This document shows, one piece after another, positions 679-1,370 of a stretch of DNA of 11,287 nt. The stretch comes from a virus (Duplodnaviria > Heunggongvirae > Uroviricota > Caudoviricetes). The translations under genes were made by a program, and so were the position numbers. The notes beneath the pieces are model-generated. The model worked only from the letters and a program-made list of their open reading frames with translations, did not search any database and was not told the origin of the DNA. Every line of letters starts with the position of its first letter. Position 1 is the stretch's first letter. Location of the stretch: the IMG/VR virus record IMGVR_UViG_2602041669_000010; one strand, 5' to 3'.

Positions 679-1221
679 ATGTGGTTAACCATAACGGCGA
701 ACCATAACGGCGAACCATACGTTCCCATGAAACCTGTCGTTGCGGGGATGGGGCTGGCCTGGCAATCACAGTTGGCTAAGTTAAGACAGCGTTTTGCGTC
801 AACTATAACGGAAATCGTTATGGTTGCTGAGGATGGGAAACGACGCAATATGGTGTCCCTGCCGCTTCGAAAACTTGCAGGCTGGTTACAAACCATCAAT
901 CCCAACAAAGTAAAACCCGAAATCCGCGGCAAGGTAATCCAGTATCAGGAAGAGTGTGACGATGTTCTCTATGAATACTGGACGAAGGGTTTTGTCGTTA
1001 ATCCCCGTAAAATGAGTGTGATGGAAGAACTCAACCAGGCTTGCGCTGACATGAAACGGGATAAAAACATTGCCAGTGTGTTTGCTACCGGGCTGAATGA
1101 GTGGAAACAGGTTAAATCCGCGCATGTATCAAAAATCCGCACATTGATAAACGAAGCGAATCTGCTGATTGATTTTGTCCTGGCTGATACAGGCAAAGGG
1201 AAAATAACAAAGGCGGATTGA
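679..1221 (+). CDS. Antirepressor-like protein (Ant N-terminal domain family); N-terminus disrupted, since the apparent true start is ATG 639 with an AAGGA RBS and a 13-bp duplication shifts the frame
   Basis: ORF 679..1221 as in the track. The ATG at 639 (SD AAGGA at 626-630) encodes MNMMTVPFHGDSLYVVNHNGEP and then hits TAA at 705-707. Removing one copy of the 13-bp repeat joins this to ...NHNGEPYVPMKPVVAGMGLAWQ..., an N-terminus typical of phage Ant/antirepressor proteins. Confidence 0.55.
   Translation: MWLTITANHNGEPYVPMKPVVAGMGLAWQSQLAKLRQRFASTITEIVMVAEDGKRRNMVSLPLRKLAGWLQTINPNKVKPEIRGKVIQYQEECDDVLYEYWTKGFVVNPRKMSVMEELNQACADMKRDKNIASVFATGLNEWKQVKSAHVSKIRTLINEANLLIDFVLADTGKGKITKAD
687..712 (+). 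repeat. Perfect tandem duplication, 2 x 13 bp (AACCATAACGGCG), inside the 5' end of the ant-like gene
   Basis: Copy 1 at 687-699 and copy 2 at 700-712, with a partial third copy AACCATA at 713-719. Because 13 is not a multiple of 3 the duplication shifts the reading frame. Confidence 0.9.
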
Positions 1222-1370
1222 TGGAGTGGTGGCTAATGATATCGGATAAACTCATAACGCTGGCGAAGATCCTCTGTGTAATCGTCGGCATTTCATTTTT
1301 AGTCATGCTGGTTGCCATTTTCTTTTCCACCGCCTGGCGAGTCCTGACGTTATCGGGACTGGTGGGGTGA
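1221..1370 (+). CDS. Small hydrophobic protein (49 aa, one predicted transmembrane helix); not in the ORF track because it is under 50 aa
   Basis: ATG at 1221 overlaps the ant stop (TGATG), with AAGG 8 nt upstream; an alternative ATG at 1236 has GGAG upstream. Stop TGA at 1368-1370, 7 nt before the Rz start. Translation MEWWLMISDKLITLAKILCVIVGISFLVMLVAIFFSTAWRVLTLSGLVG has a hydrophobic core of about 23 residues. Confidence 0.4.
   Translation: MEWWLMISDKLITLAKILCVIVGISFLVMLVAIFFSTAWRVLTLSGLVG

What the first reader, a model, noticed from the sequence alone, without database searches (positions are those of the whole stretch)
1221..1370. Unlisted 49-aa single-pass membrane protein ORF wedged between ant and Rz
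This tightly packed ORF (start overlapping the ant stop as TGATG, stop 7 nt before the Rz start) has a plausible RBS and encodes a protein dominated by one hydrophobic helix (ILCVIVGISFLVMLVAIFFSTAW). Small membrane proteins inside lysis cassettes can act as antiholins, lysis-timing modulators or superinfection-exclusion factors. It is too short for the ORF track and is easily missed by gene callers. This is the most plausible candidate in the window for an undescribed small function, though it may be non-coding.
Basis: seen in the sequence. Interest (0 to 1): 0.45.

Follow-up and report, generated by a model that had tools for sequence, protein, structure and literature searches.

The report
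Conserved tiny membrane gene before Rz
The small ORF between ant and Rz is a real, conserved gene for a 44-residue single-helix membrane protein that sits in the lysis cassette of Shiga-toxin and related prophages in about a third of E. coli genomes; databases already list it as a hypothetical protein and nobody has tested what it does.

Summary
Window 1221-1370 is an open frame whose ATG overlaps the ant stop (TGATG), it ends 7 nt before the Rz ATG, and it encodes one strongly hydrophobic helix.

It is a real gene:
- The frame is intact in 248 of 248 related loci.
- Substitutions favour synonymous change (omega about 0.38, P = 3e-14), the same constraint as on neighbouring Rz.
- The conserved start is the internal ATG at 1236, giving 44 aa with a GGAG Shine-Dalgarno. 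The ATG at 1221 is not conserved.

It is not undescribed. RefSeq annotates it as WP_000455406.1, hypothetical protein, and it is PHROG family phrog_4906 (unknown function). It occurs in 1749 of 5426 complete E. coli genomes. Many GenBank phage records, including 933W, leave it unannotated.

The family is confined to Enterobacteriaceae prophages. It always lies after the endolysin and before the outer-membrane-disruption genes, often alongside up to three other tiny membrane ORFs. It accompanies two different holin/endolysin sets.

My best reading is a late-expressed, non-essential accessory protein of lysis acting in the inner membrane. That role is inferred from position only; the mechanism is unknown. 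I found no functional study. Interest is modest.

The parts
1236..1370 (+). Conserved coding sequence of the small membrane protein (44 aa plus stop; called 'B' in this report): MISDKLITLAKILCVIVGISFLVMLVAIFFSTAWRVLTLSGLVG
   Evidence: An ATG lies one or two codons before the conserved S/P-D-K in 244/244 loci, with an SD-like motif in 243. The frame is intact in 248/248 loci. Omega is 0.38, P = 2.8e-14. It matches phrog_4906 at E = 1.4e-33. AU5Stx1 annotates exactly this 44-aa version.
1221..1235 (+). Optional 5-codon N-terminal extension (MEWWL) from the ATG that overlaps the ant stop. RefSeq uses it to give the 49-aa form.
   Evidence: The extension is 4 or 5 codons long in ant-type relatives. 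It is closed by a stop or out of frame in 4 loci and absent in all ant-less relatives.
1223..1226 (+). GGAG Shine-Dalgarno, 9 nt upstream of ATG 1236
   Evidence: Read from the sequence. An equivalent SD (GGGAGGA, AAGGGG or GGGGCAGGGG) precedes the start in other contexts.
1269..1337 (+). Transmembrane segment ILCVIVGISFLVMLVAIFFSTAW
   Evidence: Hydropathy peak of 3.14. AlphaFold2 models a continuous helix. PredictProtein gave 1 TM and inner membrane for the 933W homologue EDL933_1392 (PMC4765031 Additional file 1).
679..1221 (+). Upstream neighbour: ant, an antirepressor with P22_AR_N and ORF11CD3 domains. In this window it is N-terminally disrupted by a 13-bp duplication.
   Evidence: Pfam and PHROG hits. 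Alignment to intact copies.
1378..1842 (+). Downstream neighbour: Rz i-spanin. Its SD (aagagag) directly follows the small ORF's stop.
   Evidence: PF03245 at E = 9e-49 and phrog_13.
1598..1783 (+). Rz1 o-spanin embedded in Rz
   Evidence: ORF with a lipobox (LVTAAC). Annotated as rz1 in AU5Stx1.
2..364 (+). 3' part of the R endolysin. Full-length relatives carry an N-terminal SAR-type signal anchor.
   Evidence: PF00959. N-terminus read in L003 and L171. Pinto et al. 2021 (PMC8136144) class Stx-phage R as a SAR endolysin.
472..494 (+). Intrinsic-terminator-like hairpin between R and the ant/small-ORF/Rz block
   Evidence: A hairpin sits at the same position in L003 and L249. No + strand sigma-70-like promoter was found between it and the small ORF.

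Best explanation
Window 1236-1370 is a real gene of the phage late (lysis) operon. It encodes a 44-residue protein that is essentially one transmembrane helix. By the positive-inside rule, the short basic N-terminus (SDKLITLAK) faces the cytoplasm and about 10 uncharged C-terminal residues face the periplasm.

Expression (inferred): it is transcribed only by Q-antiterminated RNA polymerase reading through the hairpin after R. It is translated from its own SD and ATG, packed between ant and Rz.

Function (inferred from position, not shown): a dispensable accessory factor of host lysis acting within the inner membrane. It would tune when or how efficiently the holin/endolysin/spanin steps fire, rather than being a holin, endolysin or spanin itself.

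It accompanies two unrelated holin/endolysin sets and several Rz types. I therefore favour a generic membrane-level action, such as a small effect on membrane energisation or on helix packing of lysis proteins, over recognition of one specific partner.

Confidence by step: real gene about 0.9; late-operon expression about 0.75; role in lysis about 0.45; specific mechanism no more than 0.2.
For: Coding:
- The frame is intact in 248/248 loci and there are 45 distinct DNA versions.
- Pooled pN/pS is 0.38 and the median pairwise dN/dS is 0.27. The other sense frames give 0.9-1.4.
- Counts on a minimum spanning tree give omega 0.38, P = 2.8e-14. Neighbouring Rz gives 0.39-0.40.
- A start codon with an SD is conserved in 243/244 loci.
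- Variable sites per codon position are 28/22/36.

Membrane helix: and the PredictProtein entry found.

Lysis-cassette residency, from a census of 248 loci in 135 distinct contexts:
- The usual layout is class II holin, SAR endolysin, then optionally ant1 or ant2, then optionally the small ORFs A or C, then B, then optionally C and D, then Rz/Rz1.
- A second cassette has Phage_holin_8, Phage_holin_3_7, a GH108 endolysin, C, B and a 60-aa lipoprotein.

Late-operon dependence: a terminator-like hairpin follows R, and no + strand promoter was found before the ORF in three contexts.

Dispensability: the K-12 Qin cassette has rrrQ overlapping rzpQ with nothing between them. phiP27 also lacks the ORF.

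Precedents for small membrane accessory lysis proteins:
- Mu gp25 releasin (PMC9239132).
- LambdaSo Lcc6 (bioRxiv 10.1101/2024.01.23.576932).
- P1 LydD (PMC9025707).
Against: - There is no expression or phenotype data for this ORF. In the one EHEC ribosome-profiling paper whose supplementary files I searched, its 933W homologue appears only as a length-matched annotated control.
- It has no homology to any holin, antiholin, releasin, spanin or toxin family.
- Gene position in a mosaic region that also collects non-lysis cargo (ant, bor) is weak functional evidence.
- Omega of 0.38 is only moderate constraint, and the family is young and narrow.
- Conserved residues do not fall on one helix face (permutation P = 0.5), so a defined helix-helix interface is not supported.
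- The promoter scan is a crude consensus search. It cannot exclude expression in lysogens.
Confidence: 0.45

Rival explanations
1. It is a cargo or lysogenic-conversion membrane protein that merely resides in the R-Rz recombination hot spot. Candidate roles are superinfection exclusion, blocking DNA entry, or modulating a host membrane protein. On this reading it is expressed in lysogens and has no role in lysis.
For: The R-Rz/bor region collects non-lysis cargo: ant directly upstream and bor directly downstream. The interval is highly mosaic, with interchangeable small ORFs. The ORF is independent of holin, endolysin and spanin type. Many bacterial small membrane proteins act as regulators of larger membrane proteins (general knowledge).
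Against: No + strand sigma-70-like promoter lies between the post-R terminator hairpin and the ORF in three contexts. The ORF is on the late-operon strand and tightly coupled to Rz. There are no PADLOC hits. It never appears outside the slot between endolysin and spanin or lipoprotein in 248 loci.
Confidence: 0.2
2. It is a translational-coupling ORF. What matters is that ribosomes translate through it and deliver to the Rz start 7 nt downstream. The peptide itself would be a by-product.
For: The stop lies 7-11 nt before Rz, or a GTGA overlap joins it to the next small ORF. The Rz SD directly follows the stop.
Against: Selection acts on the amino-acid sequence (omega 0.38), with W34, L37, G18, S20 and M24 invariant or nearly so across 45 distinct proteins. 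In the commonest arrangement the ORF is separated from Rz by two further small ORFs, C and D. It also occurs before a non-Rz lipoprotein gene.
Confidence: 0.1
3. It is not a gene. The ORF is a chance open frame in a spacer or recombination scar, or the real gene is the antisense ORF 1112-1330 on the minus strand.
For: Short ORFs are abundant here. The antisense frame that shares wobble positions is also open in all 45 variants and shows omega 0.45.
Against: The sense frame has the lowest omega and a conserved start, SD and stop. Its second codon position is the least variable, whereas in the antisense frame the second position would be more variable than the first. The open antisense frame follows automatically from sense codons with U at position 2, because stops in that frame need A at sense position 2 (inference). 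The antisense ORF's ends differ in every context, and it lies against the direction of the late operon.
Confidence: 0.05

Closest known systems
PHROG phrog_4906 / RefSeq WP_000455406.1 (UniRef A0A0F3TKF8_ECOLX), 'hypothetical protein' of lambdoid prophages
   Same: It is this family. The match is full length (1-49 of a 49-position profile, E = 1.4e-33). The exact sequence is on at least 1000 contigs and is annotated at this position in RefSeq genomes.
   Different: Nothing differs. The family simply has no assigned function, no Pfam or NCBIfam model, and no publication that I could find.
Lcc6 of Shewanella prophage LambdaSo (bioRxiv 10.1101/2024.01.23.576932)
   Same: It is a small single-TMD protein of a lambda-like phage with a pinholin/SAR-endolysin/Rz-Rz1 system. 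It shows that lysis can need a fourth, tiny membrane factor acting at the holin level.
   Different: Lcc6 is 65 aa with a 43-aa cytoplasmic tail. It is encoded far from the lysis cassette, near xis, and is essential for lysis. The present protein has almost no soluble part, sits inside the cassette, and is absent from working relatives.
Mu gp25 releasin (DUF2730; PMC9239132)
   Same: It is a membrane-anchored, non-holin protein encoded a few genes downstream of a SAR endolysin that promotes endolysin release.
   Different: gp25 is 99 aa, N-out/C-in, with a 73-aa acidic cytoplasmic domain, and is a DUF2730 member. The present protein has no Pfam hit, the opposite predicted topology and no cytoplasmic domain. 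It also occurs with a soluble GH108 endolysin.
Holins and antiholins of the same cassettes (S21-type class II pinholin; P1 LydD)
   Same: They are small inner-membrane proteins of the late lysis operon. LydD is likewise encoded directly after a SAR endolysin gene.
   Different: Pinholins and LydD have two TMDs and a basic, hydrophilic C-terminal tail. This protein has one TMD and an uncharged C-terminal end (RVLTLSGLVG or MALSSSGLVG). It matches no holin Pfam or PHROG family.
Hok-type type I toxins of prophages (hokW-sokW of Sp5; PMC8621323)
   Same: These are single-helix membrane peptides of about 50 aa carried by EHEC Stx prophages. hokW is reported to facilitate phage release (title and abstract).
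   Different: There is no Hok/Gef Pfam hit, no periplasmic Cys-containing domain and no sign of an antisense RNA partner. The gene lies in the late operon, not in a stand-alone toxin-antitoxin locus.

Membership tests
phrog_4906 (uncharacterised phage protein family) | Full-length significant match to the family HMM | tested here: met
   E = 1.4e-33, 115.7 bits, residues 1-49 on profile positions 1-49 of 49.
phrog_4906 (uncharacterised phage protein family) | Conserved genomic slot in lambdoid lysis cassettes, after the endolysin and before the spanin or lipoprotein genes | tested here: met
   Census of 248 loci. RefSeq contexts.
Holin / pinholin / antiholin | Match to a holin family model (Pfam or PHROG) | tested here: not met
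   No Pfam hit at E <= 1. The only PHROG hit is the unknown-function family phrog_4906.
Holin / pinholin / antiholin | Charged, hydrophilic cytoplasmic C-terminal tail, and for class II two TMDs | tested here: not met
   There is one helix. The C-terminus RVLTLSGLVG carries at most one charge, and none in half of the family.
Holin / pinholin / antiholin | Lethal membrane permeabilisation on expression, or delay of holin triggering | not testable with these tools
   Needs expression experiments.
Releasin (Mu gp25, DUF2730) | DUF2730 domain with an N-out TMD and a large acidic cytoplasmic domain | tested here: not met
   No Pfam hit. The protein is 44 aa with no soluble domain. gp25 features are taken from PMC9239132.
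i-spanin (Rz, PF03245) | N-terminal TMD followed by a periplasmic coiled-coil domain that reaches the o-spanin | tested here: not met
   A TMD is present, but only about 10 residues follow it. PF03245 is not matched, whereas the neighbouring Rz matches at 9e-49.
Type I toxin (Hok/Gef and similar) | Family HMM match and an antisense RNA antitoxin | tested here: not met
   No Pfam or NCBIfam hit. No Rfam family anywhere in the window.
Moron (autonomously expressed cargo gene) | Own promoter upstream and terminator downstream | tested here: inconclusive
   No + strand sigma-70-like promoter was found upstream in three contexts, and there is no terminator between the ORF and Rz. The scan is a crude consensus match.
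Anti-phage defence proteins (PADLOC) | Match to a defence-system protein model | tested here: not met
   No hits at E <= 1 for this protein or for the companion small ORFs A, C and D.

The most novel reading that the evidence does not exclude
This ORF and the companion micro-ORFs found beside it in relatives would form an unrecognised class of tiny single-helix proteins of lambdoid lysis cassettes. The companions are A (about 31 aa, phrog_6632), C (40-60 aa, phrog_1115/4493) and D (28 aa). On this reading the class controls lysis, either its timing or the hand-over from endolysin to outer-membrane disruption, independently of which holin, endolysin or spanin the phage carries. In Stx phages that would also influence the timing of toxin release.

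A more extreme version is not excluded, though topology makes it unlikely. In cassettes without a recognisable spanin (L139 type), C, B and the 60-aa lipoprotein phrog_7528 together would be the outer-membrane-disruption device.
Probability: 0.3. Interest if true: 0.6.

Novelty: new member of a known kind. Interest (0 to 1): 0.33.

Why it matters
This gene sits in the lysis cassette of most Stx1 and Stx2 phages and in about a third of complete E. coli genomes, with up to 11 copies in EHEC. No function has been assigned to it.

In Stx phages, host lysis is the step that releases Shiga toxin and phage. Any factor that shifts lysis timing or efficiency therefore bears on toxin output.

Recent work on Mu gp25 and LambdaSo Lcc6 shows that the three-part model of holin, endolysin and spanin is incomplete, and that small membrane proteins can be required. 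This family, with its companion micro-ORFs, is a cheap and well-defined candidate for testing that idea in the best-studied phage group.

If it turns out to be neutral cargo, the practical lesson is smaller. It would be an annotation correction (start codon at 1236; gene missing from 933W and many GenBank phage records).

Tried and rejected
- **One-sided conservation on the helix.** I tested whether conserved residues lie on one helix face, which would suggest a partner interface. The conservation helical moment was 0.079 with permutation P = 0.5, so I make no claim.
- **Co-variation with the Rz transmembrane domain.** The same Rz N-terminus (MNRVLCVV...) occurs with both C-terminal haplotypes of the protein (window versus E2348/69). 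There is no specificity signal, and linkage would confound one anyway.
- **Relic of a duplicated Rz N-terminus.** Only a short ILCV(I/V) resemblance exists. No longer homologue appears anywhere among 1.84 billion representative proteins except frameshift or read-through fusions.
- **Specificity to pinholin/SAR-endolysin systems.** Rejected, because the ORF also follows a soluble GH108 endolysin with two other holin types.
- **Genome-contig scan.** It returned only a 328-nt contig in a Xanthomonas pisi assembly that is 98% identical to the E. coli sequence, most likely contamination.
- **Database searches with no hit.** Pfam, NCBIfam, PADLOC, PDB sequences and Rfam all gave nothing.
- **Literature.** No paper contains the accession. 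Surveys of Stx-phage lysis cassettes do not mention the ORF. In the EHEC translatomics paper the 933W homologue (EDL933_1392) appears only as a length-matched annotated control, with no expression data held.
- **K-12 small proteins.** I checked whether one of the newly named K-12 Qin small proteins (YnfQ/R/S/T/U) is a homologue in the same slot. None is: rrrQ abuts rzpQ.
- **Not attempted.** Structure search of a lone 44-residue helix was judged uninformative. Complex prediction with S, R or Rz is not possible with the tools offered.

Full report
**1. What the window is**

The first 3.4 kb is the lysis-to-packaging junction of a Stx-converting lambdoid phage. Window 600-1900 is 100% identical to Stx1-converting phages AU5Stx1, AU6Stx1 and SH2026Stx1. 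The gene order is as follows:
- R endolysin, 3' part, 2-364.
- A 270-nt spacer with a terminator-like hairpin at 472-494.
- ant, 679-1221, with P22_AR_N and ORF11CD3 domains.
- The small ORF, 1221-1370.
- Rz, 1378-1842, with Rz1 embedded at 1598-1783.
- bor on the minus strand, 1874-2167.
- The small terminase subunit, from 2576.

**2. The observation**

The TGA of ant (1219-1221) overlaps an ATG (1221-1223). The frame runs 49 codons to the TGA at 1368-1370. Seven nucleotides then precede the Rz ATG. The ORF was 'unlisted' only because it is shorter than a 60-aa cut-off; at 30 aa it is listed.

The hydrophobic core has a 19-residue Kyte-Doolittle mean of 3.14. AlphaFold2, run on a 14-sequence alignment, gives one uninterrupted helix over residues 2-39 of the 44-aa form, mean pLDDT 89.

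A 49-codon ORF is not itself remarkable, since there are 34 ORFs of at least 30 aa in 3 kb. The case therefore rests on conservation.

**3. Is it a gene?**

I collected 248 loci carrying a homologue from RefSeq E. coli genomes and IMG/VR.
- All 248 keep the frame; one has a read-through of the stop. They comprise 45 distinct DNA versions and 34 distinct proteins.
- In the reading frame, pooled pN/pS is 0.38 and the median pairwise dN/dS is 0.27. The two other sense frames give 0.92 and 1.39.
- Counting changes along a minimum spanning tree, so that shared ancestry is not counted many times, gives 125 synonymous against 131 non-synonymous changes on 33.5 and 92.5 sites. That is omega 0.38, and the binomial P for excess synonymous change is 2.8e-14.
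- The same calculation on the neighbouring genes gives omega 0.39-0.40 for Rz, 0.18 for ant, 0.11 for R and 0.09 for the holin. The small ORF is thus as constrained as the bona fide lysis gene next to it.

One antisense frame is also open in all variants and shows omega 0.45. That frame shares its wobble positions with the sense frame, and it can acquire stops only where the sense codon has A at position 2, which hydrophobic codons rarely do. Its ends also differ in every context, and its second codon position would be more variable than its first. I treat it as a by-product of the sense frame.

**4. The start codon**

- In relatives without ant, the protein begins M-S/P-D-K-L, directly after a strong SD such as GGGAGGATTAAGCATG or AAGGGGTAGCTATG.
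- In ant-type relatives, the conserved ATG is the one at window 1236 (M-I-S-D-K), preceded by GGAG at 1223-1226.
- The extension from the ATG that overlaps the ant stop is 4 or 5 codons long. In four loci it is closed by a TAG or is out of frame.
- All 244 loci with enough upstream sequence have an ATG one or two codons before the conserved S/P-D-K, and 243 have an SD-like motif 3-12 nt upstream.

The functional product is therefore most likely the 44-aa form, as annotated in AU5Stx1. The 49-aa RefSeq form is less likely.

**5. Already in the databases**

- PGAP annotates the ORF as WP_000455406.1, 'hypothetical protein'.
- It matches PHROG phrog_4906 (unknown function) over its full length at E = 1.4e-33.
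- The exact sequence occurs on at least 1000 contigs.
- The 135-nt gene is found in 1749 of 5426 complete E. coli genomes, at 4653 places in total and up to 11 per genome. It is annotated as a hypothetical protein in every listed row.
- By contrast, many GenBank phage records have nothing annotated there, among them 933W AF125520, Stx2 phage 86, Min27 and 24B.
- A profile search of 1.84 billion representative proteins finds only 30 matches. All are members, fragments or frameshift fusions of the same family. Named hosts are E. coli and Shigella, with single hits in Citrobacter and Cronobacter.
- There is no Pfam, NCBIfam, PADLOC or PDB match.

**6. Context**

The ORF, which I call B, always lies after the endolysin and before the outer-membrane-disruption genes, but its neighbours change.

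The main layout is class II (S21-type) holin, SAR-type endolysin, then optionally ant1 or ant2, then optionally A or C, then B, then optionally C and D, then Rz/Rz1. A, C and D are further tiny hydrophobic ORFs:
- A is about 31 aa, ...WKFLLVWSIPFLWVVSQLIVAIKG, phrog_6632.
- C is 40-60 aa, ...DDISRALAFAIKWVAVGIAVSPMLYGLAKLVIALKS, phrog_1115/4493.
- D is 28 aa, MSAELIRAMAFAIRIVAIAVLVWAIRWW, related to C.

These are documented. E2348/69 carries A-B-C-D in a row before Rz. UPEC strains carry C-B-Rz. The window has only ant-B-Rz.

A second, unrelated cassette has Phage_holin_8, Phage_holin_3_7, a soluble GH108 endolysin, C, B and a 60-aa lipoprotein (phrog_7528). No Rz was found within 3 kb.

So B is not tied to pinholins, to SAR endolysins or to one Rz type. 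It is absent from K-12 Qin, where rrrQ overlaps rzpQ, and from phiP27. It is therefore not a core lysis component.

A strong terminator-like hairpin follows R in three contexts, and the consensus scan found no + strand promoter between it and B. This argues that B is expressed only from the Q-antiterminated late transcript. That is an inference from a crude scan.

**7. Mechanism**

Shown: it is a conserved coding gene, it encodes a single hydrophobic helix, and it sits in a fixed slot in the late lysis operon.

Inferred:
- Topology is N-in/C-out. K5 and K11 lie before the TMD, and after it there is only R35 or no charge at all.
- Expression is late only.
- The role is accessory to lysis.

The protein has no soluble domain, so whatever it does must happen inside the bilayer. 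It travels with different holins, endolysins and spanins, so I favour a generic action over one specific partner. Candidates are a small effect on membrane energisation, to which both holin triggering and SAR-endolysin release respond, or an effect on packing of lysis-protein helices. I cannot distinguish acceleration from delay.

Precedents show that small non-holin membrane proteins can be real lysis factors: Mu gp25 releasin (PMC9239132), LambdaSo Lcc6 (bioRxiv 10.1101/2024.01.23.576932) and P1 LydD (PMC9025707). B fails the defining features of each of those families, as set out in the membership table.

The rivals are a cargo or exclusion protein expressed in lysogens, a coupling ORF for Rz, and a non-gene. 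The first cannot be excluded with these tools. The second is weakened by amino-acid-level constraint and by the B-C-D-Rz arrangement. The third is contradicted by the conservation statistics.

**8. Literature**

No paper in the searchable library contains the accession. Surveys of Stx-phage lysis cassettes (PMC8136144, PMC10462455) do not mention the ORF. In the EHEC EDL933 translatomics study (PMC4765031), the 933W homologue EDL933_1392 appears only among length-matched annotated controls. It is predicted there to have one TM helix and an inner-membrane location, and no expression data are held.

**9. Verdict**

This is a real, conserved and widely distributed gene that is already catalogued and is functionally uncharacterised.

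Interest is modest for the ORF alone. It is somewhat higher if the ORF is taken together with the array of companion micro-ORFs, as a testable candidate class of lysis modulators in Stx phages.

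Noticed in passing
window 689-714 (within ant, 640-1221): There is a 13-bp tandem duplication (ccataacggcgaa twice) relative to intact ant copies in E2863 and RM9467. It frameshifts the ant frame that starts at ATG 640 into a stop at about 706. Only the 180-aa remainder from ATG 679 stays open. The Stx1 phages AU5Stx1, AU6Stx1 and SH2026Stx1 are 100% identical across this stretch, so they carry the duplication too. Other phages align over 1288 nt rather than 1301 nt.
   Followed up: partly
L171 2861-3349; L249 (E2348/69) 1439-2002; L003 2304-2486: Relatives carry up to three more tiny single-helix ORFs in tandem with the small ORF between the endolysin and Rz: A (phrog_6632), C (phrog_1115/4493) and D (28 aa, related to C). 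Their order varies (A-B-C-D, C-B, B-D). None has a known function. The window itself has only B.
   Followed up: partly
L139 3141-3323; L251 (phiP27) 3092-3280: A 60-62-aa lipoprotein (lipobox FFLVGC; phrog_7528, unknown function) occupies the spanin position in cassettes with Phage_holin_8, Phage_holin_3_7 and an endolysin. No Rz/Rz1 was found nearby. In phiP27 it is unannotated and overlapped by the annotated L32. It may be an unrecognised outer-membrane-disruption component.
   Followed up: partly
window 472-494; L003 2238-2270; L249 1452-1484: A strong intrinsic-terminator-like hairpin sits directly after the endolysin gene, inside the late operon and upstream of the spanin genes. Rz/Rz1 and everything between would therefore depend on Q antitermination persisting past R. 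The spacer sequence just after R (gcagaatattttgctgaaaaatg...) recurs in other contexts, judging from the similar spurious antisense ORFs it produces after the lipoprotein gene in L139 and phiP27. It has no Rfam match.
   Followed up: partly
L007 (NZ_JPLE01000251.1, Xanthomonas pisi DSM 18956, 328-nt contig): A 328-nt contig in a Xanthomonas pisi assembly encodes the small ORF at 98% identity to the E. coli phage version. It is almost certainly E. coli or Stx-phage contamination of that assembly.
   Followed up: no
window 1112-1330 (- strand): A 72-aa antisense ORF overlaps the small ORF and the end of ant. It stays open in all relatives, but this follows automatically from the hydrophobic sense codons. 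Its ends are not conserved.
   Followed up: yes
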